A stretch of 64,000 bases of DNA from contig NIVC01001076.1 in assembly GCA_002269645.1 (NCBI GenBank), positions 1-64,000 of the forward strand, given 5' to 3'. The first letter of the stretch is position 1, and each line of letters begins with the position of its first letter. Below the pieces are notes generated by a model. The model searched no databases, was not told the DNA's origin, and saw only the letters and a program-made list of their open reading frames with translations. This document shows, one piece after another, positions 38,664 through 57,097 of the stretch. The position numbers and the translations under genes were made by a program. This stretch comes from Macrostomum lignano (Eukaryota).

Positions 38664-39991
38664 ATGAGCGGCCTGCACTACAAGAAGGACGGGACGCTGG
38701 ACATGCGCTTTAGCTCATCAAGACAGGCTGCCGCTTCGTACCAGGTGCCTGCTGCTGCTGCAAGCTTCAGCTCTTCGAGCTCGTCTTTTGCTTCCCCGTC
38801 TCGAGGTCTTTGTGGCGACGGTCTGCACTACAAGAAGGACGGATCTCTAGACATGCGCTACAGCTCGTCTAAGCAAGCTGCTGGATCAAGCCAAGCTTCT
38901 GCAGGCAACTATGGTTCACAGAGACCAGCTCCGATCTCTTCACCAGGAGGTAACTATGGCGACGGTCTGCACTACAAAAAAGACGGAACGCTGGACATGC
39001 GCTACAGCTCATCCAAGCAAGCTGCTGGATCAAGCCAAGCTTCTGCAGGTAACTATGGCGACGGTCTGCACTACAAGAAAGATGGAACGCTGGACATGCG
39101 CTTCAGCTCGTCAAAGAAGATAGTATCGAGAGAGGCTGCGCAAGGAGGAACTTCCGGATCCAGTTCCATTGCATCGCGATTCGCTTCGCTGAATGTATCT
39201 CAGCAAGGCAACTACGGCATTCCGTCGAACGTACCAACCAAGAAGGATGGAACGCCTGACATGCGGACGAGTGCAGCCAAGGACTGGGTCGCTGAGCAAG
39301 CTCGAGTCCATGGCGAAAGCGTGCCGAGGTGGGTGCCCCGGCTCAAGGACGGTACCATCAACGAGTTCAGCCCCATTGGCAGGGTCTACAAACAGTCGTT
39401 GCCGCAGGCCAGCTGCGTCGAGTACCAAAAGAGCGACGACCAGCAGCGACGCATGGAGTATTGGGCTCGCCGAATGAGGGAGAACTCCGACTTTCAGACC
39501 CGATTCGAGACCCAGATGGAGGTCGACGTACCGGATCCTGTGCAGTCTGAGATTTCATACCAAAGTGTCGACGAGTCTTCAGAACTCGTCGAGATCGCGG
39601 CCAGTGAGCTGGATAGGATCGAGGAGATCGGCAGAGGCGGCTTCGGAGTCGTTGAAAAAGCCGTCTGGCGCGGCATGCTGGTCGCCGCCAAGCGGCTTCA
39701 TATTGATCGGATGACGCGAACGGACAAGAAGAACTTTCTACAGGAGCTCGAAATCGCCCGCACGCTGCACCTGTTTCAGCATCCCAACCTCGTGGCCACT
39801 CTGGCGTACTGCATCCAACCGCCAATCTTGGTAATGGAGCTGGTAAAGGTCGGCAGCCTCTCCTACGTGCTGCACTACAGCGAGGACGCTGACGTGGAGG
39901 CAAAAATCTGCGACGGTCGCGTTAAGCGCAAATTAGCGTACAACATCGCGGACGGCATGAGGCAGCTGCATTCGGCCGAAATTTGCCACAG
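38664..39991 (+). CDS. Exon 1 of a TKL-group Ser/Thr protein kinase with N-terminal GLHYKKDG(T/S)LDMR repeats
   Basis: IGRGGFGVV Gly-loop, VAAK, FLQELE (alphaC), ending ICH-R; donor AG|gtaaac at 39992 (phase 2). Confidence 0.9.
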
Positions 39992-40128
39992 GTAAACATC
40001 AAGGAGGACTTATTGGACCTTTTTAGAAGCACTCAGTAAAATTGCATTTTGTTTCGTCTTAGGTGTCTGAAGCTTGTGACTGTTTGCTCATTTTTGGAAA
40101 ATTTTCAAGAATATGCAGCTTTTCTGCA

Positions 40129-40996
40129 AGTAGAATGCATGAGGGGGCTTCTGGGACAAAATTTTTCACCTCCTCCATAATCCCATTAAATCCATCCATA
40201 TTATCCCTGACAGAATCAGAAAAAAGGGGGGTCGCACTCGCTCACAAAACGTCCTCCATAATCCACCTAAATCCATCCATATTATCCCTGACAGAATCAT
40301 GAAAAAGGGGAGGGGCCGCACTTGCTCCGAAAACTTCGAACATAATCCTATTAAATCCATCCATTACTATCCCTGACAGAATCAGAGCATAACAGATGTC
40401 CACTAACACCTGTTATGCTCATTGACACCGACATCCACCCATAGCATCTTCGAAACAATCAGAAAATAATCTTCATTCTTCTCCCCACATTCAATCCGCA
40501 ACATGAAACCAGATCCCTAAGACTTTAAATCATCAGCGCAGGGTCCTCACCCTTTGAAAAAAAACTAAATTCTCAATAAAAATGTTTCCGATCGTCTCTC
40601 CAGGTTCTTATTACAAAACGCACGAGCCTAATTACAAATCCAAGTACCGATGCAAACTTGAATGCAGCGAGTACATGAGAAAATATTGGCCCGACGTTCA
40701 AATCAATGTTCCTAATATTAATCTAGCTCTCCAAAGACATTGGTTTCATAAGTATGGAGTAACCTATGTAAAAGATTATGACAGCTATTATAACTTTGCA
40801 GAAATCATTAAGCAATTGTGATTTCTTACATTCTCTCAATGATCAACGTCAGTACAAACTCTTCACCGTTGAAATCAACACCCACCCCATCTTCAGTCTC
40901 AAACTGTAGCACAATCTCGTGAATCTCCTTATTACTCAATACAACTCTTTTCACTGGATTTGGTTTCTCTACCACCATCTGTCCTCCAGCAACAGA
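40129..40996 (+). repeat. Left terminal inverted repeat of the Polinton (868 bp)
   Basis: Reverse complement of 55495-56366, with about 3 substitutions and 3 homopolymer length differences; contains 3 copies of an ~85-bp subrepeat at 40170-40385. Confidence 0.97.
40582..40821 (+). CDS. Small Tyr/Lys-rich ORF inside the left TIR (79 aa from ATG); function unknown
   Basis: Open in both TIR copies (partner 55674-55940, one K/R difference). Confidence 0.45.
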   Translation: MFPIVSPGSYYKTHEPNYKSKYRCKLECSEYMRKYWPDVQINVPNINLALQRHWFHKYGVTYVKDYDSYYNFAEIIKQL

Positions 40997-41328
40997 AGAA
41001 ATCGAAAAGCAAACACAAAAGCTTACTAAAAAACATACTGAGTTCATTTATTCACAAGTATATTTACATAAAACAAAGGAAAGGAAAGGAGGAAAGAGCA
41101 GATCTGAAGGCTGCGTACGGCTGTTCAGTCCAAGGACTGGGGGAGTCGCCACACACCCCCAATTACCCCAGCTAATGCTGGTCCGCGACGCGCAAGCTTA
41201 GTTGCATGGCTGGAAATGAATAAGGTAGAGAAAGAACAAGATATTGTAGATCCTCACACAATCCAAAATCGATATTCTTCGGATCCAGAATAATATTGAT
41301 TTTCCTCCCAGTCATTTTGTGAACAGCA

Positions 41329-41757
41329 CTTTCCTGTATTGTCAGGAATTCCTGTATTGTCAGGAATTGGCACGAGTTTAAAAAAAATCCTGGAGATCCA
41401 GGAAAATGTTTAGAAGACTACTATGAGTAGCTTACATTGATAAAATCCTGGAAAAAAATCCAGTAAAAGACTTTCCTGTATTGTCAGGAATTCCTGTATT
41501 GTCAGGAATTGGCACGAGTTTAAAAAAAATCCTGGAGATACAGGAAAGTGTTTAGAAGACTACTATGAGTAGCTTACATTGATAAAATCCTGGAAAAAAA
41601 TCCAGTAAAAGACTTTCCTGTATTGTCAGGAATTCCTGTATTGTCAGGAATTGGCACGAGTTTAAAAAAAATCCTGGAAAAAAAATCTTGGAGATCCAGG
41701 AAAGTGTTTAGAAGACTACTATCAGTAGCTTACATTGATAAAATCCTGGAAAAAATT
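41329..41757. repeat. 142-bp tandem repeat x3 within the Polinton
   Basis: Units start at 41329, 41471 and 41613 (ctttcctgtattgtcaggaattcc...). Confidence 0.92.
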
Positions 41758-42716
41758 TGTTGATAACTAAGAAGTGAATCTTCATCAGCAACAAATGATC
41801 GGCGAAGTTCGTCAAACACCATTTCGGTTCTCATGGCGTAGTTGTTATCCTGGGTCTCCATGGCCGCTCTTGAACAAATTCGCTGGTTCTCAACTTTTTC
41901 ATTGAAGAAATGATGGAGAACTTCTTGAATTCTCTCTGATGCCGGTTCGTTGGCATCTAATCCTTCAACAAGGCGACCATGGAGATTTTCTAGGTCGGTC
42001 GAGTAGAACGTAATTTTTTGTGAACTAAAAACAAAGATTTAATCAAAATAAGAGATTTTTCAATTCTTAACACAGTATAGAATTTCAGTAAGTAAAAAAT
42101 GAATAAACTTACAACATAATGAAATCAGCAGCCACAACGGTGCAGTATTGCGCGACGAAGAACGTGTGCGAGCAAAATGAGCTGAATTTTCTTGCTTGCT
42201 TTAACTAGCTTCCGAGCGATCAATTCCCTCCACCCGCTTCCTTCCCTCCGGTTGTCAAAGCGGAAAGGAATGCACACGTGGAACTTGTACATTCGCAAAA
42301 TCGATTAGAGGGCTACGCCCCCCCCCTCAGCAATAGCAGTTACCCCACCCCCTTCTGCTTCTCAACATTTCAAATGCAGCTGTCGCGTTTGGCCAGGGTT
42401 GAGAATAATAGTTAAACCCTTCCCGACTCAAGCGCCCCTCTCTACCCCCCCCCATATCTTCATACCGTATAGACCAACAAGGCGGGCCACATTCCGAGGC
42501 CAAATCGGCGGGCCAACTGGCCTCGCAATTTGGCCAATAATCAATATCAATCAAGGAATCCCAAGCAGTCCATGCATGCTAATGGCGGCGAAGGGGTTGA
42601 CTTTTTATTTTCTGCTCTTAGCTCTCTGGAGAATGAGAATCTCTCTTGTGCGCAACTCTTTAGGGAATAAAAAACTGTACTTACTCAAATCCACACTTGC
42701 TCATGCCCTTCCCGAT

Positions 42717-43217
42717 TCAAGCGCCCCTCTCTACCCCCAGCTCTTTCAGCAGTCTTCCCAATTTCTTGTTAGGAGCGCACAAAACAAACCCCGCTCCTGA
42801 GCCTCCGCCCTCTCTCCTCGTGCACCAGCCCTCTCTCCCTGTGCACCCGCCCTCGCCTTCAACCCCCAACCCCAACTTTGTTTTACCAAAAATAACAGCT
42901 TTAACTAGCTTCCGAGCGATCGACTCACGAAATCCGCTTGAAGCCCCCATATGGTCTAGTCTCTTAAGCATTTCTTTGTCCCACCGATTCTTCTCCTCAG
43001 GAAAATCTCTATACTTAACGTCGTGCCACATGCAGACAGAGTCTAGCTCGTTCACAGGCTCATGCCCAGGATTTGGATTATCGTTTGTATCTAACTGTAT
43101 TTCAAGTGGATTCAAAGGCCCGCAATATTTATAGCCGGGAAGTGTCCAGCCTTTGTTTGGATGAGGAAGCTTTTCTATCAGTCCATGTGAATCTATTTTA
43201 CCACCAGAGCGCTGCAT
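42717..43217 (-). CDS. Parvovirus-VP1u-type phospholipase A2 domain protein (PLA2X-like)
   Basis: Ca-binding loop LPGYKYCGP and catalytic PVNELDSVCMWHD..Y motif. Confidence 0.85.
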   Translation of the reverse strand: MQRSGGKIDSHGLIEKLPHPNKGWTLPGYKYCGPLNPLEIQLDTNDNPNPGHEPVNELDSVCMWHDVKYRDFPEEKNRWDKEMLKRLDHMGASSGFRESIARKLVKAVIFGKTKLGLGVEGEGGCTGREGWCTRREGGGSGAGFVLCAPNKKLGRLLKELGVERGA

Positions 43218-43247
43218 TATTTTATTTAAAATTTTCTTTTTAAATAA

Positions 43248-44243
43248 ATGACAGATCAGAAACTTAAAAAACTCTACTACAGCGACAAAGGATTCTTTGT
43301 AGGAAAAAATGCAGTCACCAAACTCGCAGAACTAAGTAAGGAACCAAAAGCTAAAGTAGAAAAGTGGCTCTCTAAGCAGGCTGTCTTTCAAGTCTATTTC
43401 CCACCTGTTCAATTTACGAGACCTCACTTTAGCATCTATAAACCTAATGAAGCGCACCAAGCAGACTTATTGTTTCTCCCCAATGACTCAGGTTACAAGT
43501 ATGCTCTTACAATTATTGACATTGCTTCCAGATATAAGGAAGCTCGCCCACTCAAGACGAAGAAGTCAGAAGCAGTTGCAGCCGCCCTCCAAGATATTTA
43601 TAAAAACTCACCCCTTAGTTACCCTGAAATCTTTATGACGGACCCGGGTAAAGAATTCATGGGTGCAGTGATATCACTTCTACATAAGTATGACACAAAA
43701 ATTCGCTATGGCAGAACTGAGCTCCACAGAGACCAGGCTTTTGTGGAAAGATTCAATCTAACTCTAGCCAAGAGGCTATTCACTAAGCAGACAGCAGAGG
43801 AGCTGAAACTAAAAAGTGGCCAATACTATACCAAGTGGACAGACCGGCTCCCCACTGTTATAGAGCAACTGAACAATGAAGTCACGCGCATGACTGAATT
43901 GAAACCGTCCCATGCAATTAAACAAGACACTGTCGAACTTAAGTCATCTCATAGAACAGACACCTCAAACTACCCTAAGCTTCCAGGAGTTGAATCACCA
44001 TACATACTGACAAACTCTGAGTTTCTACGCTTTTTATATCTACCTGGAGAGCTAGAGAAAGACACCAAAAGAAGAGCTACAGATCCATACTTCAGCCTTG
44101 ATGTACATAAAATAGACAGACATTTTACCTCCGACTCTGGAGACTATTACTTTTTATCTCAAACCTTTAACCCTAAATCCCCCACGCGGTCATTCACTAG
44201 AGCTGAACTCCTAGTGATACCGGCTGACACAGAAATTAATTAA
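43248..44243 (+). CDS. Retroviral-type (rve, DDE) integrase, intact
   Basis: HQADLLFL, LTIIDIASRY, FMTDPGKEF, QAFVERFNLTL. Confidence 0.95.
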   Translation: MTDQKLKKLYYSDKGFFVGKNAVTKLAELSKEPKAKVEKWLSKQAVFQVYFPPVQFTRPHFSIYKPNEAHQADLLFLPNDSGYKYALTIIDIASRYKEARPLKTKKSEAVAAALQDIYKNSPLSYPEIFMTDPGKEFMGAVISLLHKYDTKIRYGRTELHRDQAFVERFNLTLAKRLFTKQTAEELKLKSGQYYTKWTDRLPTVIEQLNNEVTRMTELKPSHAIKQDTVELKSSHRTDTSNYPKLPGVESPYILTNSEFLRFLYLPGELEKDTKRRATDPYFSLDVHKIDRHFTSDSGDYYFLSQTFNPKSPTRSFTRAELLVIPADTEIN

Positions 44244-44259
44244 AATATTAAAATAAAAA

Positions 44260-44718
44260 ATGACAAAGATTGAAACCAGAACCATCAATAAACTCAATAA
44301 AATCATTGAATCAAAGAAACCAGGTCTTATATCAATTAAAGGTATCAAAGTAAAAATCGATCCCACGCAGCAAATACTTCAGTGTAATGAGCAAAGACAC
44401 AGCATCACAGATGAAAAGTCAGGAGGAATCCTACCATTAGCAGCTCTTATTCCAATCATTGCAGGCGCTGTGAGTGCCGCAGGTGGTGTAGCTGGAGGTG
44501 TAGCAACTGCCGTTAAAGCTGGGAATGATAGAGCCCACCAGCTTGAATTGCAAAAGATTGCAAGAGACAAAGGTATAACAATTAAGGCAGGAGATGGTTG
44601 CCCTGAGGGCTGCCCCGATCGTGATGATTTTGAGCATGAAAATTCTGTAAGCAAGTCTGACATTGTCAAAGCCATCATGACACTGCACAATGCTGGGTTT
44701 ACAATAATGCGCATGTGA
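44260..44718 (+). CDS. Adenovirus pX/mu-like core protein candidate
   Basis: KSGG-ILPLAALIPIIAGAVSAAGGVAG resembles the adenoviral pX C-terminal GG(I/F)LP.LIP.IAAAIGA motif. Confidence 0.6.
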   Translation: MTKIETRTINKLNKIIESKKPGLISIKGIKVKIDPTQQILQCNEQRHSITDEKSGGILPLAALIPIIAGAVSAAGGVAGGVATAVKAGNDRAHQLELQKIARDKGITIKAGDGCPEGCPDRDDFEHENSVSKSDIVKAIMTLHNAGFTIMRM

Positions 44719-44844
44719 TGAGGTTTAAAACCCCACTTTATCCAGCTTCATAAACCTAATACTACTGATAGGATGTAGAAACAGTTCAACTTTTCTATCA
44801 GGGTGGTCACCCTCAAAAATTTTTTTTTATTTTAGAGAAAAAAA

Positions 44845-47800
44845 ATGCCAAAAGCCAATCCAGCAAGAGATTTAGTCAACAAATATTTTTCAAAAGGTGT
44901 CTCATTTCAAGACAAAAGTAATTTACTAAGAGAAGCATGTAAACAAACGTTTAACACAGACCCTGGTCACCTGGGAAGCTATGAAAAACAGTTGGAAATC
45001 ATCAATCAATTAGAATCCAACCAGTATGCGCCTATAAAAATCCTGCAAAAGAACACCAAGAGAGGAGTCGCAACTTAGTTAACAAATATGAAACTCTCAC
45101 TGGTGAAAAAGCAAAGTACCCACAAAATAAGCAGGAACAAGAGAAATTAGAGCAATTAATCCATTTAAAAGAGTCGGAGCTTGCCATTGAAGAGATTAAT
45201 TTTGCACAGAGAAAGTTTACAGAACATTACATAGAGTACACAATCCCAATTAAGGATACCACCGCAAACATCTACGACTATAAAGACAGCATCCAATCAG
45301 TTGTTGATCACACACTCAAAACACGCAAGACCTTTAAACTACAGATATCATTCAAGATTGCGTTTTATATTCCTTCAAAACCCACTGAGCATCTCGAGTA
45401 TTACATTACAACAAAGGCGAAGCCATTCACCCCTACAGACACACTGGATCCTTTCCTTCAAGATGTCACTAAGAAAATTGAAGCGTTTACATCCAGAGGT
45501 TCCGCATGGGTCGTGGGAGGGATTCAAAGAGCGACTGTCATGGTCATGAAATATGACCCACTTAAAGCCTCCTCTTATATAGAGCTCCCGCATAAGCTAG
45601 CCGGCAAAAAAGCTTGCATAAATGTTAAAAATAAAGACAATTGCTGTGCTCTGTGGGCAGTTCTTTCTGCACTTTTTCATGATAGTGTCCCTCACCACCC
45701 CGAAAGAACCTCAAATTATCAAAATTATTTCAACTACTATCTTATCGAATGCGAAAAGAAGGGAATCAGGTTTGACAAAGGAGGCTTGGCGATCTCTCAG
45801 ATCTCAAAGCTAGAAGAAGTGTTTAATAACAAAATTAGAATCACAGTCTTTGAATGGAGTGAAAAAACTGAGAAAGTTCAACCGGTCAGATGTAGCAAAG
45901 ACGTTTTAGATCCCCGAGGGGAAAAGGCGGACTGAAGTGGATCTTCTAGTGATTGGTAATTTACTAGAGGAGGCTCACTATGTTTGGATTAAAGATCTTT
46001 CAAGACTCATTCACAAGCAGTTGAATAATCATCACGAGGCTGTTGCCATCTGCCGCTTGTGCCTTAAGCATTACAGTGGACCTGAACGCTTTGAAAAACT
46101 AACAGAGCATGAATTATCATGCGAGGATCACCCGACAAACTGCTCTCTTCCTTCAGCTGAAGAGAAGTATCTCCGGTTTAAGAACTATCACAAGATGGAG
46201 AAGCTCCCATTTGTTGTATATGCTGATTTCGAATGCTCAATCATGCCAGAAACTCAAAAACAAACTCAAACACAAAAACAAACTCAAACTCAAAAACATG
46301 TTCCCAATTCAGTAGCATATGCCTTTATTAATACAAAAGGACTTGTTGAGTATAATTATTTCTTTGGAGAGCAGTGTGTGGAGCAGTTTATTGCCAGAAT
46401 GTTAGAGTTGCAAAAAGTGATTAGCACCCTTCAACCTGTTCCAATAATGATGACTGAGGAGGATGAAAGCAATTTCCTATCAGCAACTCATTGCCACATC
46501 TGCAGGAAACATTTAACTTGCACTGATATTAAAAACCCCACCGTTAGGGACCACTGCCACTTTACTGGGAAATTTAGAGGTGCAGCGCATAACACCTGTA
46601 ATCTAAAGCTAAAATCGAACATTCATGATCTAACGATATTTTGTCACAACGCAAAGAACTATGACATGCATTTAATAGTTGAAAAAATCGGCATGATTCC
46701 AGACATACACCTTGACTGCATCGCAGAGAACAAGGAGAAGTTTAAGTGTGTTGATATTAAACAGGATAATTCGGGTAAAGGTGAAGGTTCGGGTACAGGT
46801 AAAATAAGACTGAAGGATTCATATCAATTTCTAGCTGCCAGTCTAGACGAACTAAGCAAGAATCTAAAAGATGAACAATGTACATATACAAAGATGTTTG
46901 CAAGTAAAATTTACAACAGTGATGAATCATTTAAACTCCTGAGAACCAAAGGCTTCTACCCCTATGAAAATATTACTGGGTATCACGTATTTGAAGAAGG
47001 TTTACCACCACAGGAGAAGTTCTTTTCAAAGCTAACAGACTCTGGAATCTCTGACAAAGACTATGAGCACGCGAAGCATGTCTATAATTACTTTAATTGT
47101 CAAAACTTCTTCCAGTATCACCTGCTTTACCTCTTCACAGATGTGTTTCTGCTGGCCGATGTGTTTGAAACCTTCAGATATACCTGGTACACAGCATATG
47201 GCCTCGATCCAGCACATTATGTGTCTCTGCCTGCCACTAGCTGGGAATCTTTGCTTAAAATGAAATGGGATCAAGATCCAGATTGGTACATTGAACTTCT
47301 TACAGACATTGACATGTACAATTTTGTCGAATCGTCAAAGCGAGGGGGGATCTCAATTTGCACCCATAGATATGCAAAAGCAAACAATCCCTACATTGAA
47401 TCTTACAATAAGGAGCAGCCCTCAAACTACATTACTTACTTGGACGCTAATAATCTCTACGGGTGGGCGATGAGTCAAGATCTTCCAGTTAGAGATTTTC
47501 GATGGCTACCCTCATCAGAATTCAAACGGGACTTTTCATTGGCTGCCATTTATGAAGTTGATGTTTACATTCCACCAGAGCTTCACGACTATTTCTCTGA
47601 CTTTCCACCCTTCCCAGAGAACATCAAGTGCCCGAAAATAATCGAAACTCCCAATGATAATAATGGAACTTGGCCTGTCAGGAACAGAAAAAGAACATAC
47701 AGAGAAACTAACACAGAATCTAAACAACAAGACACGTTACAAAATCCATTACAAACTGCTTCAGTATTTTATCTCACTTGGTTGCAGGGTCACCAAAGTT

Positions 47801-48714
47801 CACCGGGCTCTTACATTTACAGAGGAAGCGTGGATGAAACCCTACATTGATAAGAACACCCAGTTTAGGACCAAAGCAACCAACGACTTTGACAAGAACC
47901 TCTTTAAGTTGGCCAACAACTCTGTCTATGGCAAGACTCTTGAGAATGAGCGGAAAAGAACAAACCTGAAACTTGTTACCTCATCAGAGCCTGCTGTTAT
48001 TCAGGCAAATATGTCAAAGCCAACATTCAAAGAACTCCATATCTTTAATAGCTACTTAGGTGTGATCATATTTTACAAAACCAAGGTGACGCTGCGCAAG
48101 CCGATCTATACAGGTGTCACTGTTCTCGACGAATCAAAACGTCTGATGTACCAGTTCTTCTATGGCATGAAGCAGCAGTACAAGGATAAAATGAAACTCT
48201 TGTACACTGACACAGACAGTTTTATTATGGACATTCAAACACAAGACATTTATCAGGACATGCTGCAGCAAAAAGATTTGTTTGACTTGTCTGAGTATGA
48301 TGAATCTTGCAGGACACAGAATGGCGATCAAGTGTTTGACGCCACTAACAAGAAAGTGATTGGGAAAATGAAGGACGAGATTGCTGGTGACATAATCACT
48401 GAATTCATTGGGTTGAGAGCAAAGTCCTATTTTGTAAAATGTGAGTCGTCAGACCCAATCAAAAAATCAAAGGGAATTCCGAAACGTGTGTTAGGAAGGA
48501 AATTAATGAAGCTGAATACAGAGACGCCTTGAATTGCAACAAAAAGACATCACATGAGTTCTCAAAGCTACAATCTAAAAACCATATTATTCACACAATT
48601 CAGCAAAAGAAGATTGGACTGTCAGGTGCAGATAACAAGAGATTCATTTTTGATGACAACATTAACAGTCTACCGTTCGGGCATTGGAGATTAGGCTTAG
48701 GAGGTGGAAGTTAG
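44845..48714 (+). CDS. polB: Protein-primed family B DNA polymerase, broken by 4 apparent frameshifts (~45030, ~45935, ~47650, ~48495)
   Basis: Exonuclease VYADFE, HNAKNYDMH, LKDSYQFL; endonuclease VII-like CHIC..RDHCHFTGKFRGAAHNTCN; polymerase YLDANNLYGWAMS, KLANNSVYGKT, YTDTDS, EFIGLRAKSY; C-terminal LSGADNKR..LPFGH. Confidence 0.95.
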
Positions 48715-48789
48715 ATTCGGGCACTGGAGATTAGGAGATTAGGAGATTGGGTTTAGGTTTAAGAGAAAGTTTAATAAACCTCATAAAAA

Positions 48790-49189
48790 ATGACGACAAA
48801 TAACTTTCTTGAAGATTTGGCTAACGAACTGGAAATCCCAAACTTTAGAGGAATATTTATGAGGGACACTCTGCCTGATTTTCCTCTAAGAAAGAATGCG
48901 GCATCATGAACTTTGACACCACCGATAAGCCAGGATCTCATTGGGTTTGCTGGGTGATTGATCCCGATCGCAAGCACAAGTGTTATTACTTCGATAGCTA
49001 TGGGACGGCAGTACCAGAAGAGCTAAGAAATTATATGAAGGGGAAAAAAATAAAAAAATTTATCGCTCAGACTTTATTCTCCAAGGTCTTAGCAGTGATA
49101 TTTGCGGTGAGCTGTGCATGACTGTTTTGTATGCAATGACCAAAACACGAAAGACCTACAAGGAAATTATTCTTGGCTGTGTTTCATAG
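48790..49189 (+). CDS. Adenain-like (C5) cysteine maturation protease, 2 homopolymer frameshifts
   Basis: Reconstructed MTTNNFLEDLANELEIPNFRGIFMRDTLP..ECGIMNFD..PGSHWVCW..YYFDSYG..QGLSSDICGELC gives the His/Asp/Gln/Cys catalytic set. Confidence 0.85.
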
Positions 49190-49192
49190 GGT

Positions 49193-49906
49193 TCATTGTG
49201 CATTCCTCGTCGTCCTTCTCGTTGTCCTTCTTTCCACATAATGTTGAAGAACTTTCTCGAGTTCATTTCTCAGCTGACTCATGTCATCAGTACCGACCAT
49301 GTTCAAGTTCATTCGAATTGATTGTTCATAAAGATCCTGAATGGTTTTGAACTCATCCTCTGAAATGAACTTATCCTCGATTGCCCTTGAAATGTACCCT
49401 ATGATTGATGTGTGCACCCCTTTCTCTTTTACTTGCTTCTCCTGTAGCTGCTTTAGTTTTTTTCGCCTGTTTCGCGCTACTGCTCCAGTAATTGCTGAAA
49501 TAAGTCCACATGCAGCACCTACTGAACCAAGTGGAATTGCGATTGGGGCTGTGATGGCTGGCAACACTGAGACAGCTGCAGCAGATCCAGATAGAACAGA
49601 CACAGATCCTAGAATCATATTGCTGTAGTCGAAAAATTTACAGTGGCTGTCATAGCGCTTAATTTTCTTTGTGTTGTGAAAAATATTTTTTTCAAGATCA
49701 TCTCGCATTTTTTGAATCTCCACCAGTCGAAACTGTTGAGAGTTACAAGTAATGACGGGGTAGAGTTTTTGTTGCTCATATTGGGGTGCATTCAGATTCG
49801 GTGCCAGGTTTTGTGTGTTCGAATTCGGTGCCATTGAGTTTGGTGCTGTCGGTATTTTAGGTTCAACGTATTGAGACTGATCGTATAGAGAATTTTGTTG
49901 GGCCAT
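49193..49906 (-). CDS. Polinton membrane protein (two hydrophobic helices plus coiled coil) with N-terminal PTAP and LYP motifs
   Basis: Hydrophobic MILGSVSVLSGSAAAVSVLPAITAPIAIPLGSVGAACGLISAITGAV followed by basic RNRRKKLK; resembles the protein described in adintoviruses as gasdermin-X-like (from memory). Confidence 0.7.
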   Translation of the reverse strand: MAQQNSLYDQSQYVEPKIPTAPNSMAPNSNTQNLAPNLNAPQYEQQKLYPVITCNSQQFRLVEIQKMRDDLEKNIFHNTKKIKRYDSHCKFFDYSNMILGSVSVLSGSAAAVSVLPAITAPIAIPLGSVGAACGLISAITGAVARNRRKKLKQLQEKQVKEKGVHTSIIGYISRAIEDKFISEDEFKTIQDLYEQSIRMNLNMVGTDDMSQLRNELEKVLQHYVERRTTRRTTRNAQ

Positions 49907-49998
49907 TTTTTTCTCTAGAAAAAATAAAAAAAATTATAAAACTATCCGGTTGAAAGATCTGTTTTCTTTTTGATAATTCCATCTGCACCGCCGGTTGT

Positions 49999-50808
49999 CT
50001 AGGCGGCTCTCGTGACGCCGGAGGATCGCGAGTCCAGCAGGCAGCGGCTGGGCGGCTGACGTTTGAGAGCGTGCCGGATTACTCCGGCGGGGTCCAGAGC
50101 TCCTTCTACTCTATCTGTAGACATGACCGGACGAGCAGCAGATTCTGCTTCATCAATAGCAATATCACGAAGATTGAGTGTTCTCTCCAGACGATCAAGC
50201 CTCCTTATTATTTTACCCCAAGAGCTATACATTCCGTTTAGATAGCTACTGTGTGATACATCCTTTCTCTTTAATGCTTCAAGTCTTTCTTTGATTCGAT
50301 CATGCAACGATGTTGACTGAGTCATGAACTCTTCTAAATTCCTCACTTTACCTGTGTTGGTTGCGACGTTTTCTTTAATTCTATCATGCAACGCTGTTGA
50401 CTGGTTCATGAACTCTTCTAAATTATTTACTTTAGCTGTGTTTGTGAAAACTCCTCCTTCGAGAATACGCATCCGTCTATCAGTGGAATTTCCCAGAAGA
50501 TTAACTGATGATCTCAAGCCGTTGATTAGCGAGACTATCGAAGTTATTTCTGACCTTAGTTCATTAGTTGCGTTTAACAACGGCACATAAAGCTTATCAC
50601 TTTCAAACTTCTGCCTAGCTACTTTAAGCCTGAGATCTTCCATGTTTATTTGCAACTGGTGCATGGAGCGCTCTAGGGCTTTCAGTCTGTTTTTATTCAG
50701 TTTGATCTCTGGGATCTCTTCATCGCTGTTAATGTAGCGCTTGTCAAGGAAGGAAGTTGTGAGAGTGCTGTTGCCTGTAGTTGACTCACCTGCAAAGTTT
50801 ATCGACAT
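49999..50808 (-). CDS. Coiled-coil protein, possible fibre/spike
   Basis: Heptad pattern; internal duplication TNT(A/G)KV.NLEEFM.QST.LHDRIKE x2; N-terminal FLDKRYIN. Confidence 0.55.
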   Translation of the reverse strand: MSINFAGESTTGNSTLTTSFLDKRYINSDEEIPEIKLNKNRLKALERSMHQLQINMEDLRLKVARQKFESDKLYVPLLNATNELRSEITSIVSLINGLRSSVNLLGNSTDRRMRILEGGVFTNTAKVNNLEEFMNQSTALHDRIKENVATNTGKVRNLEEFMTQSTSLHDRIKERLEALKRKDVSHSSYLNGMYSSWGKIIRRLDRLERTLNLRDIAIDEAESAARPVMSTDRVEGALDPAGVIRHALKRQPPSRCLLDSRSSGVTRAA

Positions 50809-50824
50809 CTTTTAATAGCAAATT

Positions 50825-51625
50825 TTAAATTACAGTTCTTTTTTCTTTGCTGATAATCACAAACTGGTAAGGCTGATTCCACTTGTCATAGCAAAGATTA
50901 ACGAATTCCTCTTGTGAAATCTTTCTGCTTGAGTTTTTTGTTGGATTTATGAAATAGGCAGGCGCAATGACCTCATTGTAAAATCTTTTTAGCCTGTCCT
51001 GTGGAATGGTTGGAAACAGGAGAATCAGATTGCAGTTCCCACGAATTGTTTTGTTCGGGAGCTCGAACCAATTCTGTGCAATGTAAATTACATTGCAATT
51101 GTTATGTCGCCCTCTTGTAAAATAGTTTTCTATCTGCTTCTGTGGGCCTGTCATACAATCATCAAAGACGATCAAATGCTTTCTCCCCTTTTCTAGCTCA
51201 TCTGGTTGGGGTAGAAGTTTGGTCTTTGGATCAGCCTGTGGATCTCCATAGGTGAACACTTTAATGTTCTGCCATTTTTCATTGTCTTTGAGGTGCTTTG
51301 CATATTCAGCAGCTACAATTTCAGGGTTACTGGGAAGGCTCATTTGGTTATTAAAACATGCAATAATGTCCTCTTTGTGCAGTTTGTTTTGCAATCCAGA
51401 AATCAACATTTTATACTCATCTTGATACAGTGTGGGAGAGTAGATGTGCAGAGTGTCATAGTCGATAAAGCCAGGTCTAAGAAGCATGTTAAAGACTCTG
51501 AATGTTTTACCTGAACCTGATGAACCAACAACAATGCATCTGAAGTGACTCGGAATTGACTCGTGATGAGAAAACTTAATCTGATTACGCGTCCAGTGAG
51601 GATTGAAGTCGTTTGAAAAGTCCAT
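50825..51625 (-). CDS. A32/FtsK-like genome-packaging ATPase, intact
   Basis: Walker A VVGSSGSGKT, Walker B LIVFDD, arginine finger FTRGRH, YIAQ. Confidence 0.95.
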   Translation of the reverse strand: MDFSNDFNPHWTRNQIKFSHHESIPSHFRCIVVGSSGSGKTFRVFNMLLRPGFIDYDTLHIYSPTLYQDEYKMLISGLQNKLHKEDIIACFNNQMSLPSNPEIVAAEYAKHLKDNEKWQNIKVFTYGDPQADPKTKLLPQPDELEKGRKHLIVFDDCMTGPQKQIENYFTRGRHNNCNVIYIAQNWFELPNKTIRGNCNLILLFPTIPQDRLKRFYNEVIAPAYFINPTKNSSRKISQEEFVNLCYDKWNQPYQFVIISKEKRTVI

Positions 51626-51661
51626 TTTTTCTATGAAAAAAAAATTTAAATAATAAATAAT

Positions 51662-51808
51662 TTAGATGTGTCATTTCGGGACTTAGATGTGTCATTTTGG
51701 GACTTAGATGTGTCATTTTGGTACTTAATTGTGTCATTTCGGGACTTAGATGTGTCATTTCGGACTTAGATGTGTCATTTTGGGACTTAGATGTGTCATT
51801 TCGGGACT
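51662..51808. repeat. 21-bp tandem repeat (ttagatgtgtcatttcgggac) x7 upstream of the ATPase start
   Basis: Direct inspection. Confidence 0.93.
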
Positions 51809-51834
51809 AGTCTTGTACCCTCGGAAAGTACCCT

Positions 51835-52224
51835 TTAGTCAAATTTGAAACCACTTCCTTTTTTAATGCTAGCCCTCATCTTCTCATAGACTGCAGGGTC
51901 CACACTGTCTGGATTTGGGGCCAATGGAGCCAGCGGGGCCAGTGGAGGCTGAATCTCTTGTTTAGGTGTTACAGTATCCTTTATCTTTTTGGCTGCTGTG
52001 GCTACACTGCCAGCCGCTTCGGCAACGTTCTTGATGTTCTCTTTGTTCTCTCCAATGACCTTAAAAATCTTGGCCCCCTGAGCGATCAAATCGGCAAGAC
52101 CGTTCCCTGAGCGTTCTTTTCTTGGATAGTGGCCTGCAGGGAAAAGTCCAGATCCGCGTTTAATGAGATTAAGTTCCTCTTTGTCATAGTATTTGTCAAT
52201 GTCTTTTTCGAAAATAATTGGCAT
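51835..52224 (-). CDS. Putative virion core protein with three G-x-G motifs (likely start MPIIFEK)
   Basis: KRGSGL, RSGNGL and KKGSGF motifs; ATG at 52224 preceded by an A-run, like other genes in the element. Confidence 0.6.
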   Translation of the reverse strand: MPIIFEKDIDKYYDKEELNLIKRGSGLFPAGHYPRKERSGNGLADLIAQGAKIFKVIGENKENIKNVAEAAGSVATAAKKIKDTVTPKQEIQPPLAPLAPLAPNPDSVDPAVYEKMRASIKKGSGFKFD

Positions 52225-52240
52225 CTTTTTAAATAGAAAT

Positions 52241-53465
52241 TTATTTTTTGTTGAACCGCGAAAGCAGAAGCTCTCTCGCCCTCTTATCGATGTATTTTCT
52301 CTCAAGCATTTTATTGAGGATGTTGACAAATTCTTTTCTATTCTCATCTTTCATTCCGGTCTTTGCCGCTCCTAGAAGAACCGCTACTCGCTTGTAGATT
52401 TCAGAAATTCCTTTTCCAGTTGAGGGCGGTTGGTCTTGAGGTTGTGGAGTTGGTTGGGCTTGTGGCTGCTGGGGAGGTGATGCAAAAGACTGCTCACTTT
52501 CAGAGATGGAACTGTCATGTGGTGCCTGTCTTTGTTGAGGTGTGAAAACTCTTTGCTTGATTCTGTTCATTCGATCTGGAGAGTGTTGTTCTAAGTGTTG
52601 CCAGTCTGTCGGGTTTTGTTTCTTATATTCAGCACTTTCAAAGGGTCTAACTGCTCGAGTTGACTGAGTACTTGTTCTTCTATGGAATGTTGCTGCTGTT
52701 GTGGCGGTTGCTGTTGCTGTTGTGGTTGTTCTAGATATTTTATGACTTCCGCCTGATCTGGCAAACCGAACCATTGTTTAAAGTGCTTGTACTTTTTGAA
52801 TTTAGTCAGGTTGACACCGCTATCGTACATGTGTTTCAAACTTCTGGGACCTTTAGTATTTCTATATCTCTAACAAGAGAAAAAGTCACTAGATTTCTGT
52901 AGTTCTTTAGCTGCTTCTCAGAGATTTTCTCTTGGTTCTTGGTCATAAAAGTCAGTAAGGTGTCTGTGAAAGGAATTTTCATAGTTTCTGAGCCTTTGAC
53001 AACAGAAATATTTTCCTTATTTATGTCGATATAATATTCCACTGGTTCATTATAAATGTTTCTTCTCCACACACTTATTCCAAATACATATTTCCCATCA
53101 TGTTCTACACGCTCTACTGGTCCAAAAATTATCTGTCACTTTTAGTTCTGTTGTTGTGGTTGTGATTGTTGTGGTTGTGATTGTTGTGGTTGCGGTTGTG
53201 TCTGTGGTTGCGGCAGTATCTGTGGTGCTTCTGGAATTTTGCCCAAAACCTTTTGCACTTGGGTTTCCTGTATGTCGTCGATAGTTTCTTTGACCTGATC
53301 AATATTTTTCTTAGCTTCTCCATACCCGGGCTTATGAAACTCTGTGGCTGCTTGGACAAACTCATTGTAGGATTGTTGCTCCTTATTTATTAGCCCGGTA
53401 ACTCGTTTCTCTGCTTGTGCTAGCTTCTCCAATTCAGATATCTGCTGTGTACTTTTTCGCTTCAT
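52241..53465 (-). CDS. Gln/Pro-rich Polinton protein (about 400 aa if joined), several frameshifts
   Basis: ORFs 53142-53465, 52836-53072, 52591-52839 and 52241-52774 abut in the same direction; C-terminal GKGISEIYKRVAVLLGAAKTG..EFVNILNKML helix motif. Confidence 0.6.
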
Positions 53466-53495
53466 TTCTTATTTTATTTTATTTTTAGTTAAAAA

Positions 53496-54781
53496 ATGAA
53501 CGACCCACTGACACCAGTTTTCTACAAGATTAACAAGCCTATTTTGAGTGATAATAGCACAATCAAAGCGACTCAGGTAAGAGTTCCCAGTCAGGAAAAT
53601 CAGAATGAAACTAATCTTGGTCCTGGTCAAACACTGACATTTACATACAATGGATGTTCGTCTTTGGTTAGTGTGCACAGTCTTAAGAGCGGCTTCCATA
53701 TGACATTTCAATTCAAGACAAAGGGTGGTGCGGATGCGGCTCGTGCTAACGTTGACAAGCATGATGCGGATGTGGCTCTGATCAGTAACTTTTGGGCGTA
53801 CATGTTCAAGGAGTTTAGTGTATCGAATGGGAGCACTGAGTTGGAGCGAATCGCCAACTTTGGAATTGTCTATGACGCTCATTGTTTATCGAGAATCCTG
53901 ATTTTATTCAATTGGGAAGTGGTGCGGGTTTTATTGCAGACGAAAAAGAAGGAGATATCAATGACAGTGGTTATAAAAATAGGAAGAAGAGATACAACTA
54001 TGCATTGCAAGGTGCTGATGATGCTGCTAAGAACCCGCTGTATCGGTCTGTTGATGTATTTGTACCATTGAGATTCATGAGTGGATTCTGTAATACATTT
54101 AATCGACTGACTAGTAACTTTAGCTACACATTTAGACTGACTAGAGATGATCGCAGTAGAGTGTTGTGGACTGGGGCGGACCACACTGGGATGGCTGTGA
54201 AGCTAACCGGAATCGAGCTGTATTTGGAAGTCATTGAGCCAAAGACTGCACTAAAAGCAGACTATCTTAAGGCAATAGAGAAGGACATTGATGTTGCATA
54301 CACGGCCTACATGTGTCGAGATGAGCGAAACGAAACTAGAACAAACATCTGCATTAAAGAGGGATCATGCAGCAATCCAAGGTATATCATTATTAACATG
54401 AGAAACCCAAATAGCATTATACGCTACATGCATGGAGACGTGCGGTCCATTCAGCATGAAATCAGTGATAATCTTTACCCTGCACTGCCACAAAATGGAG
54501 ATTTCAGTCAGAACAAGATTAGCAAATTTTACAGCGAGTTGGTCGACTTGGCTGTGAAAGAGAACAATGGAATTGCTATCACTGCTCTTCAATATGGAAC
54601 TCTATATCCGATGTTTGGCGCTGATGTGTCTGCCAGACAAATGCCTACTGATAACAGCCCTGTGAATATCGTGACTAACATTGAAAGGACTGCCGCAACA
54701 CCCGTGGACCTGTACATTGTCTATGCATTTGAGAGGAAGGTGAAGCTTAACATGATCAACAATTCATCCAGTAAAGTTTAA
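53496..54781 (+). CDS. Major capsid protein (double jelly-roll, hexon-like), 1 frameshift near 53880
   Basis: About 428 aa when joined; beta-rich; DVFVPL..MSGF, PRYIIINMR, YPALPQNGDF, LYPMFGADVS motifs; located upstream of the penton candidate. Confidence 0.8.
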
Positions 54782-54801
54782 ATATTTTTTTAGGACAAAA
54801 A

Positions 54802-55665
54802 ATGGAAGCTATAGCCGAAAGACTAAACAACATTGTTTCACACTCTAAGGAGAGCATTCCTATTACAATAACCGGGCGAATTAATGACTCAAACGGGATA
54901 TTTGTTGAAAAATTAGAGCAGGCGATTCGCCTGGATCCAGGTGCTAATTACCATGTCTATCTTAACGACTTTACTGGTTGGTCAAACGTTCCCAATGTGA
55001 TGGCAGCAAATAATAAGTTTTATTACAAATGGAAAGGTGCAGCAGCAGACCCTGTGGTATTCCATGTGAGCACGCAAAGTGTGGATACCTACAATAACTT
55101 TCTAGAAAATGTCTTTACTAAGAGAGGCCATTTTGAGACACCTGATGCGAGTAAGCCAGAGAAGAAACTGTTCCCTGTCAAACTAACCTATGATCTCACT
55201 GTAATGAGAGTGGTCATGCAAGTTCACAAAGATGCGGAGGTTGAGTTTAAAGATGACACTTGGTATAGGGAACTGGGATTCGAGAAGAAAGTTTATAAGG
55301 CAGAATCCGCGGCGCGGACCGCCACTCAAGCATCGGGGACTGTTACAATGGTCCGGGAAAGTGTACGCGGTTTGTTCTTAGCACCCAATATAGCAGACAT
55401 TGTAAAGGGTTTGAATATTCTAATCAGAAGCAATCTCAGTCTTGATTGGGTATTTAAGGGAAAGCGAACGAATATTTTGTACAACATCTCCAACTCTGTT
55501 GCTGGAGGACAGATGGTGGTAGAGAAACCAAATCCAGTGAAAAGAGTTGTATTGAGTAATAAGGAGATTCACGAGATTGTGCTACAGTTTGAGACTGAAG
55601 ATGGGATGGGTGTTGATTTCAACGGTGAAGAGTTTGTATTGACGTTGATCATTGAGAGAATGTAA
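54802..55665 (+). CDS. Minor capsid protein (penton-like single jelly-roll), intact
   Basis: IRLDP...V.LNDF.GW.NVPNV..ANNKFYY, LIRSNL, NILYNI, I.LQFETEDG..VDFNGE...LTL; size and position fit. Confidence 0.8.
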   Translation: MEAIAERLNNIVSHSKESIPITITGRINDSNGIFVEKLEQAIRLDPGANYHVYLNDFTGWSNVPNVMAANNKFYYKWKGAAADPVVFHVSTQSVDTYNNFLENVFTKRGHFETPDASKPEKKLFPVKLTYDLTVMRVVMQVHKDAEVEFKDDTWYRELGFEKKVYKAESAARTATQASGTVTMVRESVRGLFLAPNIADIVKGLNILIRSNLSLDWVFKGKRTNILYNISNSVAGGQMVVEKPNPVKRVVLSNKEIHEIVLQFETEDGMGVDFNGEEFVLTLIIERM

Positions 55666-56366
55666 GAAAAAAATTACAATTGCCTAATGATTTCTGCAAA
55701 GTTATAATAGCTGTCATAATCTTTTACATAGGTTACTCCATACTTATGAAACCAATGTCTTTGGAGAGCTAGATTAATATTAGGAACATTGATTTGAACG
55801 TCGGGCCAATATTTTCTCATGTACTCGCTGCATTCAAGTTTGCATCGGTACTTGGATTTGTAATTAGGCTCGTGCGTTTTGTAATAAGAACCTGGAGAGA
55901 CGATCGGAAACATTTTTATTGAGAATTTAGTTTTTTTCAAAGGGTGAGGACCCTGCGCTGATGATTTAAAGTCTTAGGGATCTGGTTTCATGTTGCGGAT
56001 TGAATGTGGGGAGAAGAATGAAGATTATTTTCTGATTGTTTCGAAGATGCTATGGGTGGATGTCGGTGTCAATGAGCATAACAGGTGTTAGTGGACATCT
56101 GTTATGCTCTGATTCTGTCAGGGATAGTAATGGATGGATTTAATAGGATTATGTTCGAAGTTTTCGGAGCAAGTGCGGCCCCTCCCCTTTTTCATGATTC
56201 TGTCAGGGATAATATGGATGGATTTAGGTGGATTATGGAGGACGTTTTGTGAGCGAGTGCGACCCCCCTTTTTTTCTGATTCTGTCAGGGATAATATGGA
56301 TGGATTTAATGGGATTATGGAGGAGGTGAAAAATTTTGTCCCAGAAGCCCCCTCATGCATTCTACT
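55495..56366 (-). repeat. Right terminal inverted repeat of the Polinton (872 bp)
   Basis: Reverse complement of 40129-40996. Confidence 0.97.
55674..55940 (-). CDS. Small ORF in the right TIR (copy of 40582-40821)
   Basis: Identical except K/R near the C-terminus. Confidence 0.45.
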   Translation of the reverse strand: MKKTKFSIKMFPIVSPGSYYKTHEPNYKSKYRCKLECSEYMRKYWPDVQINVPNINLALQRHWFHKYGVTYVKDYDSYYNFAEIIRQL

Positions 56367-56595
56367 TCTGCAAGTCGGATTTTAGCTTTAAAGCTAAAAT
56401 TCAAAATGGATTTTTTCACTCCAAAGCCGTGAAAAACACTTGCTACAGTAATACTACATGTGAAGTAGAAAGCACAATCAGGATGTAGAAGCTCGTAAAT
56501 AGGGGTAACGATGGGCATCGCGTGTACTTAACTATCGCTTTTAGGCCTTGGATTGCTTTTAAAAGCAACAGCGCGCTAAAACTTTCTCACTTCAG

Positions 56596-57097
56596 AGATC
56601 TCAAGCCGCAGAACGTGTTGATCACTGACGACTGGACGGCCAAGATCGGTGACTTCGGACTGGCTCTGCTGCGGGACCTCACCTCGGCCTCGGTGGCCTC
56701 CGATCGCCTGCAGGAGGAGGGCTGCCACGTGTACAACCCCGCAGGTACGGCCGCCTACATGGCTCCAGAGCTGCTCGAATCAACCAAGCCGTTCGAGTTC
56801 AACTGCGACGTCTACTCGTACGGCATCCTGCTCAACGAGCTCATCTCCGAGGAGCAGCCGTACAGCAGCCAGATGCGGCAATTCGGAGGCCGAGGCCCGT
56901 TCGCAGCCGCCAACTTCGCCAAGATGGGCAACCGACCGATCATCGCTCGCGGCATCGCCAAGCCCGTGAGCGACCTAATCAACAGGTGCTGGCACGCCGA
57001 TCCGAGCAGCAGGCCGAAGTTCGAGGAGGTCATGCTCAGCATCGAGGACAAGCGGTTCGTCATTCCCAACGGCGGCGGACTTCTTGTACGAAATTGA
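56596..57097 (+). CDS. Exon 2 of the TKL-group kinase (C-lobe)
   Basis: Acceptor ttctcacttcag|A completes R; then DLKPQN, DFG, GTAAYMAPE, DVYSYG, CWHADPSSRPKF; stop at 57095-57097. Confidence 0.92.

What the first reader, a model, noticed from the sequence alone, without database searches (positions are those of the whole stretch)
40123..56372. Near-complete Polinton/adintovirus-like endogenous virus inside the single intron of a kinase gene
Seen: a 16,238-bp element with AGTAG..CTACT ends, a 6-bp TCTGCA duplication, ~99% identical TIRs and about 13 genes. Removing it leaves an ordinary 360-bp intron. Known: 6-bp TSD, rve integrase, pPolB, A32 ATPase, C5 protease and jelly-roll capsids define Polintons/Mavericks. 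Inference: a recent, possibly virion-competent lineage in this host, with accessory genes (PLA2, pX-like, 2-TM, fibre-like) suggesting a full infection cycle.
Basis: partly seen in the sequence, partly recalled or inferred. Interest (0 to 1): 0.9.

Follow-up and report, generated by a model that had tools for sequence, protein, structure and literature searches.

The report
Young Polinton virus in kinase intron
A 16-kb Polinton (a virus-like jumping element of a well-known class) recently inserted into an intron of an animal kinase gene; it is one of some hundreds of young copies that swap capsid and packaging genes and include fold-back defective forms, which makes this host a good place to look for the still unseen particles of animal Polintons.

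Summary
Confirmed: a 16,238-bp element (40129-56366) with AGTAG..CTACT ends, a TCTGCA duplication and 868/872-bp inverted repeats, in a kinase intron. Two other contigs hold the empty site (one TCTGCA; introns 360 and 342 bp). It encodes rve integrase, pPolB, adenain-like protease, A32 ATPase, double jelly-roll capsid (Z 25, sibling copy), penton (Z 13), PLA2 and pX-like proteins: a Polinton/Maverick with an Alpha-adintovirus-type polymerase. The family is large (526 terminal motifs), young, under purifying selection on capsid genes (dN/dS 0.06-0.25), and mosaic: two ATPase and two capsid types occur in all four combinations on one polymerase background. Five fold-back defective elements carry exact 6-bp duplications, pointing to free linear replication and help in trans. 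Expression, free DNA and particles are not shown; 'fibre-like' is unsupported. New member of a known kind; large expansions, selection on capsids and module exchange are published for other hosts.

The parts
38664..39991 (+). Host protein kinase, coding exon 1 (N-terminal short repeats, kinase subdomains up to HR)
   Evidence: same exon in empty loci L001, L002
39992..56595 (+). Host intron (GT..AG); 360 bp without the element
   Evidence: RNA contigs join exon 1 to exon 2 (loose end at 56593 in X18)
40123..40128 (+). Target-site duplication, left copy (TCTGCA)
   Evidence: single copy in empty loci
40129..40996 (+). Left terminal inverted repeat, with ~80-bp subrepeats, a 79-codon ORF (40582-40821 +) and an inverted 175-bp copy of the penton 3' end (40822-40996)
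   Evidence: the extension is shared with copy C187 at another site (L038)
40997..42700 (.). Variable left-arm region: three ~130-bp repeats and a 102-codon frame without Pfam match; siblings carry other cargo here
42717..43217 (-). Phospholipase A2-like protein (parvovirus VP1-type), 166 aa, open
   Evidence: PF08398 50.3 bits, cut-off 23.9; YKYCGP and WHD motifs
43248..44243 (+). rve (DDE) integrase, 331 aa, open
   Evidence: PF00665 39.7 bits, cut-off 32.6; D, D, E motifs
44260..44718 (+). Adenovirus pX-like protein with a hydrophobic segment, 152 aa, open
   Evidence: PF05829 30 bits, cut-off 25; hydropathy
44836..48714 (+). Protein-primed DNA polymerase B with an endonuclease-VII-like insert; frameshifts near 45040, 45910, 47670 and 48490 as assembled
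   Evidence: PF03175 43.4 bits, cut-off 25.8; PF02945 below cut-off; motifs; breaks; relatives 43-48% identical, the named ones mostly marine invertebrates
48790..49189 (+). Adenain-like cysteine protease; frameshifts near 48890 and 49050 as assembled
   Evidence: PF00770 19.3 bits on an 80-aa piece, cut-off 21.3; H, D, Q, C motifs in order
49193..49906 (-). 237-aa protein with a ~50-residue hydrophobic stretch (membrane hairpin), function unknown
   Evidence: Atlas 0.93 to unnamed clusters from molluscs and Nucleocytoviricota
49999..50808 (-). 269-aa coiled-coil protein, variable among copies; no support for a fibre
50825..51625 (-). A32/FtsK-type packaging ATPase, 266 aa, open (type A allele)
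   Evidence: PF04665 27.4 bits, cut-off 22.8; Walker A and B; two alleles
51835..52347 (-). 170-aa basic protein, unknown
   Evidence: dN/dS 0.3-0.4
52241..53465 (-). ~400-codon Gln/Pro-rich gene, in several frames here (breaks near 52620 and 53130); one frame in several siblings; no Pfam family
53496..54781 (+). Double jelly-roll major capsid protein (type A); frameshift near 53890 as assembled
   Evidence: sibling protein P0014 (99% identical to both pieces): pLDDT 92; Z 25.0 PBCV-1, 21.5 Sputnik, 20.2 mavirus; PF21738 below cut-off
54802..55665 (+). Single jelly-roll penton (minor capsid), 287 aa, open
   Evidence: pLDDT 77; Z 13.0/12.5 PBCV-1 capsid chains, 12.6 mavirus penton, 12.1 aviadenovirus chain; minor-capsid hits in BFVD
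55495..56366 (-). Right terminal inverted repeat with the 79-codon ORF (55674-55913 -)
   Evidence: ORF dN/dS 0.32-0.39 over 29 open copies
56367..56372 (+). Target-site duplication, right copy (TCTGCA)
56596..57097 (+). Host kinase coding exon 2

Best explanation
A Polinton/Maverick (adintovirus-type endogenous virus) that its rve integrase inserted very recently into one of the three copies of a kinase intron that the assembly holds. It belongs to a family of some hundreds of young copies. Most likely cycle: a copy leaves the chromosome or is copied out, replicates as free linear DNA by protein-primed strand displacement, and is re-inserted with a 6-bp duplication at sites without sequence preference (insertion chemistry shown; free stage inferred). 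Template switches during that stage lengthen the terminal repeats (175 bp in this copy, several kb in fold-back defectives), and recombination between co-resident lineages shuffles two ATPase types and two capsid types (pattern shown; timing inferred). Defective forms lacking integrase or capsid were inserted with help in trans (inferred). Capsid, penton and ATPase are kept by purifying selection, so the lineage probably still passes, or recently passed, through particles (inferred, about 0.6). The host transcript is spliced across the intron; whether this holds for the filled allele is unknown.
For: Ends, duplication and empty sites. Hallmark genes and folds. 526 terminal 20-mers, 0 for the control; integrase 121 scored of 1755 candidates, all 90-100% identical; capsid C-half 131 of 606, 95-100%. 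Exact 6-bp duplications in 13 of 17 full-length siblings with both ends read, all hexamers different. dN/dS among close copies: capsid 0.16, penton 0.25, ATPase 0.13, integrase 0.16, pPolB piece 0.16; between types 0.09, 0.06, 0.03 with dS above 1. All four ATPase x capsid combinations among 14 copies with exact duplications (5, 5, 2, 2). Five of five fold-back elements examined have exact duplications and unmirrored flanks; one is held twice with the same structure. Short-read contigs show internal-deletion joints and one opposite-strand joint (table 5).
Against: This copy is broken in 11 places as assembled; 0 of 14 siblings have all nine tested genes in one frame, and pPolB is in one frame in 1 of 14. 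Some siblings carry in-frame stops and retroelement insertions, so part of the family is truly dead. At least one contig joins the left flank of one insertion to another right flank (C2793 vs C3908), so chimeric joins or ectopic crossovers occur and could inflate mosaicism. RNA-run cover of the element is flat and follows the DNA profile, repeats included, so transcription of its genes is not shown. No free ends or particles could be examined.
Confidence: 0.85

Rival explanations
1. The family spreads only as an intracellular self-synthesising transposon; the capsid module is a recent relic or serves inside the cell, and no infectious particles form any more. Mosaics and fold-backs arise after insertion by gene conversion between chromosomal copies or between the two arms.
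For: No fully open copy among 14 as assembled; real stops and nested insertions in some; no expression shown. Conversion that keeps both flanks would also keep the duplication.
Against: Purifying selection on capsid and penton even among copies under 10% apart; both capsid types have recently expanded (30 of 97 scored matches at 93-100% to type B, 67 at 83-85%, none between); the repeat extension of this copy recurs at another insertion site (C187), so such rearrangements are transposed.
Confidence: 0.3
2. This particular copy is truly decayed: its 11 frameshifts are real and it is a dead passenger of an active family.
For: 11 frame-changing indels against 36 private substitutions in 12,964 bp; the count is at or above the upper end of the error estimates (about 8 from twice-held insertions; fold-back arms 18 gaps in 20.5 kb, 12 of them in one comparison).
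Against: Three twice-held insertions differ by 43 indels and only 25 substitutions in 32,169 bp, one pair by 12 indels and 1 substitution; P(11 or more) = 0.17 at that rate; no substitution in the outer ~680 bp of the repeats means little time to decay.
Confidence: 0.35
3. The filled locus is an assembly chimera.
For: Chimeric-looking joins exist in this assembly; the DNA run X2 gives a contig through the empty form.
Against: Exact duplication of the one hexamer present in two empty loci, collinear flanks; in run X9 the flank contig begins exactly at 56366, the point where filled and empty forms part, and carries the window's base at 56463 where both empty loci differ (weak, one contig).
Confidence: 0.04

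Closest known systems
Polintons/Mavericks of animals with pfam03175-type pPolB (Alpha adintoviruses of Starrett et al., PMC8502044; group 2 / pPolB1 of Jeong et al., PMC10748475)
   Same: 6-bp duplication, long inverted repeats, rve integrase, pfam03175 pPolB, adenain, FtsK/A32 ATPase, double jelly-roll capsid, penton, PLA2 and pX-like domains; pPolB 43-48% identical to 120 listed proteins, the named ones from corals, a sea anemone, a sea slug, a crinoid and a snake.
   Different: PLA2 and pX are separate genes on opposite strands around the integrase, not the PLA2X fusion described for Mayetiola-class modules; the capsid forms its own clade whose nearest relatives are unnamed (68-78% and about 45%); placement against named adintoviruses was not possible.
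Expanded polintovirus families of stony corals (PMC11131425) and vertebrate Mavericks (PMC8097293)
   Same: Hundreds of copies per genome; purifying selection on morphogenesis genes used as an argument for particles; most copies degraded.
   Different: Here the copies are very close (pPolB C-terminal part 95-99% in 14 of 14) and show gene-sized allele shuffling and fold-back defectives with exact duplications; I saw neither in the passages read.
Module exchange in Polisuviricotina (Starrett PMC8502044; Jeong PMC10748475; Barth et al. 10.64898/2026.10.13.758929)
   Same: Replication and morphogenesis modules reassort.
   Different: Those cases are between distant clades or concern pPolB replacement; here two sister capsid types (83% aa, synonymous sites saturated) and two ATPase types are shuffled independently among co-resident copies in one genome.
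Snap-back/defective genomes of linear DNA viruses such as adenovirus and AAV (recalled, no call)
   Same: Head-to-head duplicated arms with loss of the other arm.
   Different: Here they are fixed as chromosomal insertions with target duplications.

Membership tests
Polinton/Maverick | Long terminal inverted repeats with AG..CT ends (terminal rule recalled) | tested here: met
   868/872 bp, 863 matches
Polinton/Maverick | 6-bp target-site duplication | tested here: met
   TCTGCA twice; once in two empty loci; exact in 13 of 17 full-length siblings
Polinton/Maverick | Retrovirus-like (rve) integrase | tested here: met
   PF00665 above cut-off, DDE motifs, open frame
Polinton/Maverick | Protein-primed family B polymerase | tested here: met
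   PF03175 above cut-off; exonuclease and polymerase A, B, C motifs present, spread over frames
Polinton/Maverick | A32/FtsK packaging ATPase | tested here: met
   PF04665 above cut-off; Walker A and B
Polinton/Maverick | Adenain-type cysteine protease | tested here: met
   PF00770 E 0.001 on a piece, just under the cut-off; H, D, Q, C motifs in order
Polinton/Maverick | Double jelly-roll major capsid protein | tested here: met
   Model of natural sibling P0014, pLDDT 92; top 16 PDB matches are capsid or scaffold chains of the PRD1-adenovirus lineage, Z 25.0 (rmsd 4.9, 360 aligned) down to 8.9
Polinton/Maverick | Single jelly-roll penton | tested here: met
   Window protein; mavirus penton Z 12.6 (rmsd 7.2, 237 aligned), PBCV-1 chain Z 12.5 (rmsd 3.0, 131 aligned); next group Z 7.5 and below
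Polinton/Maverick | Terminal-protein and vOTU domains at the pPolB N-terminus (PMC11071308) | tested here: inconclusive
   A Cys-containing motif is present in the N-terminal piece; no Pfam hit, no model made
Alpha adintovirus | pfam03175-class PolB | tested here: met
   definition from PMC8502044 section 3.1
Alpha adintovirus | PLA2X fusion gene of Mayetiola-class virion modules | tested here: not met
   PLA2 (42717-43217 -) and pX-like (44260-44718 +) are separate genes
Alpha adintovirus | Capsid clusters with the Mayetiola reference | not testable with these tools
   No named reference among sequence hits; tree holds unnamed rows only
Adintovirus as a virus | Free-ended genomes or particles | not testable with these tools
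   All 24 listed runs are contigs, which cannot show ends
Polinton-like viruses (PLV) | Most lack pPolB and rve integrase (abstract of PMC5499653 in listing) | tested here: not met
   Both genes present; pPolB nearest to animal-genome proteins

The most novel reading that the evidence does not exclude
The host carries a living Polinton virus population caught in a burst: free linear genomes replicate, throw off fold-back defective genomes that integrate with helper function, and two old capsid types and two packaging ATPases reassort among them; particles are still made. It would be a much-sequenced animal (runs from 8 studies hold the element) in which Polinton virions and defective-interfering dynamics could be seen directly.
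Probability: 0.3. Interest if true: 0.8.

Novelty: new member of a known kind. Interest (0 to 1): 0.5.

Why it matters
Particles of animal Mavericks had not been observed according to PMC8097293 (2021), and my search of 2023-2026 papers (listing only) showed no title reporting them. A host with hundreds of very young copies, filled and empty alleles, selection on capsid genes and integrated fold-back defectives is a strong candidate for finding free genomes or virions by observation alone. The fold-back insertions are a fossil record of the inferred free linear stage. The single insertion itself, and a virus-like element in an intron, are ordinary for this class.

Tried and rejected
IMG/VR scan with the capsid alignment: 170 pattern matches, none confirmed. 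PDB sequence searches: nothing useful for the pPolB piece (5 rows, E 0.59 and above) or the capsid profile (0). Earlier findings of the scan: nothing. No RNA holder on record in the run list; two guessed-RNA runs proved to hold spliced kinase contigs and no intron cover, but their cover of the element is flat and follows DNA, so trace DNA from hundreds of copies or intronic read-through explains it: no evidence on expression. Depth ratios were not used as copy numbers. 'Fibre' rejected as unsupported. Sequence-specific targeting rejected: 14 different hexamers. My first reading, that the copy is plainly dead, was weakened by the twice-held insertions. Fold-backs as chimeric reads rejected because flanks are not mirrored and duplications are exact. 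Candidate twin pairs that turned out to be different insertions (C2087/C1330, C1304/C1604, C186/C714) were left out of the error estimate; L051/L053 gave no alignment; C2793/C3908 was left out as a suspected chimera. Whole-element DNA search scored only 2 of 1958 candidates and is no count. One literature search timed out. The host was not identified by any search; flatworm names in searches were a recalled guess.
Full report
Observation. The terminal inverted repeats are 868 and 872 bp with 863 matches, 4 substitutions and 3 gaps; the substitutions all lie in the inner part, none in the outer ~680 bp. It sits in intron 39992-56595 of a 609-aa host kinase; without it the intron is 360 bp. The genome holds two further copies of this kinase locus, both empty with one TCTGCA (L001, intron 360 bp, 609 aa; L002, 342 bp, 594 aa). 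Window flanks differ from L001 by 15 substitutions and 2 gaps in 3,506 bp. In independent short-read contigs, run X2 passes through the empty form; in run X9 the flank contig starts exactly where filled and empty forms part and carries the window's base at 56463, a weak hint that X9 holds the filled allele.

Genes. Pfam gives PLA2 (PF08398), rve integrase, adenovirus pX, DNA_pol_B_2 and Pox_A32 above their cut-offs, and Peptidase_C5, Endonuclease_7 and DJR-like below; catalytic motifs are present. The window's penton folds as a single jelly roll (pLDDT 77; Z 12.6 to mavirus penton, 13.0 and 12.5 to PBCV-1 chains, 12.1 to an aviadenovirus chain, 11.7 to Sputnik). The major capsid was modelled from a natural sibling protein 99% identical to the window's two pieces: pLDDT 92, Z 25.0 PBCV-1, 23.9 faustovirus, 21.5 Sputnik, 20.2 mavirus. 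pPolB relatives number at least 5,106 of 8,000 scored candidates; the 120 listed are 43-48% identical and the named ones come from animals, mostly marine invertebrates. The 237-aa protein has a long hydrophobic stretch and unnamed look-alikes. The 269-aa protein is coiled coil; nothing supports 'fibre'.

State of this copy. As assembled, pPolB, protease, major capsid and a ~400-codon gene are split: 11 frame-changing indels and 36 private substitutions over 12,964 bp against siblings. Siblings are broken too, each at other places: of 14, none has all nine tested genes in one frame and pPolB is in one frame in 1. But three insertions that the assembly holds twice (same flanks) differ by 43 indels and 25 substitutions in 32,169 bp, one pair by 12 indels and 1 substitution; that rate predicts about 8 frameshifts here, P(11 or more) = 0.17. 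The arms of fold-back elements differ less (18 gaps in 20.5 kb, 12 in one comparison). So many breaks may be long-read indel errors and some may be real; this cannot be settled with contigs. In-frame stops in 10 of 121 scored integrases, 3 of 131 capsid halves and 10 of 136 pentons (best-scoring matches, biased to intact) and nested retroelements show real decay in part of the family.

Family. The terminal 20-mer matches 526 times (268 + 258; control 0), about 260 element equivalents before merging twice-held loci; first-look candidates were 606 for the capsid half and 586 for the penton. I read both ends of 17 full-length siblings (13 chosen from paired termini among the first 100 listed, 4 more met while seeking twins): 13 have an exact 6-bp duplication, 1 has 5 of 6, 3 none; all hexamers differ. 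Nei-Gojobori dN/dS between natural open frames (pairs not independent) is 0.13-0.27 for core genes among copies under 10% apart, including capsid 0.16 and penton 0.25.

Mosaicism. In 14 siblings the pPolB middle and C-terminal parts, protease and membrane gene are 93-99% identical to the window, while ATPase (79-80 or 95-98%), the ~400-codon gene (67-70 or 90-95%) and capsid-penton (75-80 or 93-98%) fall into two types. A type-B capsid query gives 30 of 97 scored matches at 93-100% and 67 at 83-85%, none between. The types are sister clades (100/100), with dS above 1 and dN/dS 0.03-0.09 between them. Among 14 copies with exact duplications, the window included, ATPase/capsid combinations are A/A 5, B/A 5, B/B 2, A/B 2. 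Matching duplications argue against simple chimeric joins, which do occur (C2793).

Fold-backs. Five of five head-to-head pairs followed up are single elements with one arm at both ends, exact 6-bp duplications and unmirrored flanks; four carry the capsid arm at both ends, and one has the integrase arm twice and no capsid; one is held in two contigs alike (the middle of C2140 was not read). The window's own left repeat is lengthened by 175 bp of the penton end, as in copy C187 at another site. The simplest reading is template switching during strand-displacement replication of free linear DNA, then integration with help in trans; arm conversion after insertion is the rival.

Expression. Runs X11 and X18 contain spliced kinase contigs and no intron cover, so they are RNA; their cover of the element is flat, includes the repeats and follows the DNA runs, so it shows nothing about element transcription.

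Comparison with what is known. All defining features of Polintons/Mavericks that could be tested are met. By polymerase it is Alpha-class in the sense of Starrett et al. (PMC8502044; section 3.1 and passages read), but PLA2 and pX are not fused, so I do not file it under the Mayetiola-class genus. Domain architecture of pPolB: PMC11071308 (passages). pPolB swaps and a survey counting 748 pPolB1 genes in 8 of 73 flatworm genomes: PMC10748475 (passages and two supplement rows); if the host is a flatworm (my recalled guess, untested) this family may already be inside that count. Hundreds to thousands of copies in corals: PMC11131425 (passages). Purifying selection on morphogenesis genes, copy numbers up to 287, particles unobserved: PMC8097293 (passages). 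Module reassortment: 10.64898/2026.10.13.758929 (abstract and one section). Orthopolintovirales insertions in Rhabditophora: 10.1101/2025.04.19.649669 (passages; its supplements are closed and may list this host). Searches for a description of this family or of fold-back Polintons found none in the listings (titles and abstract starts only; subscription journals and Repbase not covered).

Verdict. A real, very recent Polinton insertion, new member of a known kind. The single locus is ordinary for the class; the value lies in the family: young, large, selected for capsid function, shuffling capsid and ATPase types and leaving integrated fold-back defectives. Shown: insertion, empty sites, gene set, folds, copy abundance, selection, mosaic and fold-back patterns in the assembly. 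Inferred: free linear stage, help in trans, particles. Interest 0.5; novel case probability 0.3, interest 0.8.

Noticed in passing
L037+L061 (C975), L062+L035+L036 (C633), L063+L064 (C1652) = L065+L066 (C276), L067+L068 (C1584), L069+L070 (C2140): Fold-back elements of about 8.5-15.5 kb: one has the integrase arm twice and no capsid, four have the capsid arm at both ends; arms 98.6-99.97% alike; exact 6-bp duplications, unmirrored flanks.
   Followed up: yes
L021, L022: A 0.64-0.72-kb derivative made of terminal-repeat sequence only, one insertion held in two contigs, with a 6-bp duplication.
   Followed up: partly
L031, L032: A family terminus inserted into the pPolB gene of another copy (near window-equivalent 47916), same flank in both contigs.
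   Followed up: partly
L029:5100-9700, L008:2270-4070: Ty3/gypsy retroelement sequence inside sibling copies.
   Followed up: partly
L020:7594-8415, L024:7800-8564 and relatives: Two families of 240-274-aa cargo ORFs without Pfam match in the variable left arm of siblings (6 and 2 frames).
   Followed up: partly
L047/L048 (C2793) vs L049/L050 (C3908): Same left flank, different right flanks; only C3908 has the matching duplication: an assembly chimera or ectopic crossover.
   Followed up: partly
window 40582-40821 and 55674-55913: 79-codon ORF inside both terminal repeats, kept open across siblings with dN/dS 0.32-0.39, no Pfam match.
   Followed up: partly
window 38664-39300: The host kinase begins with several short repeats (GLHYKKDGTLDMR-like); a partial inverted copy of the gene lies about 65.5-66.0 kb along the same contig and beside both empty loci.
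   Followed up: no
window 58000-63800: Ty3/gypsy-type retroelement remains: rve piece 58564-59421, gag-pol-like frame 60414-62477 (read by eye, motifs recalled).
   Followed up: no
window 31479-33110: 543-aa frame that reads like the endonuclease and start of the reverse transcriptase of a non-LTR retroelement (motifs recalled, no family scan).
   Followed up: no
window 1200-30200: Dense minisatellite arrays (units of 8, 11, 13, 16, 21, 22, 33, 37 and 51 bp).
   Followed up: no
P0015-P0024, P0001-P0013: Unnamed capsid relatives at 68-78% and penton relatives at 55-64% identity in ENA, JGI and Logan assemblies, on short contigs: related lineages exist elsewhere.
   Followed up: partly
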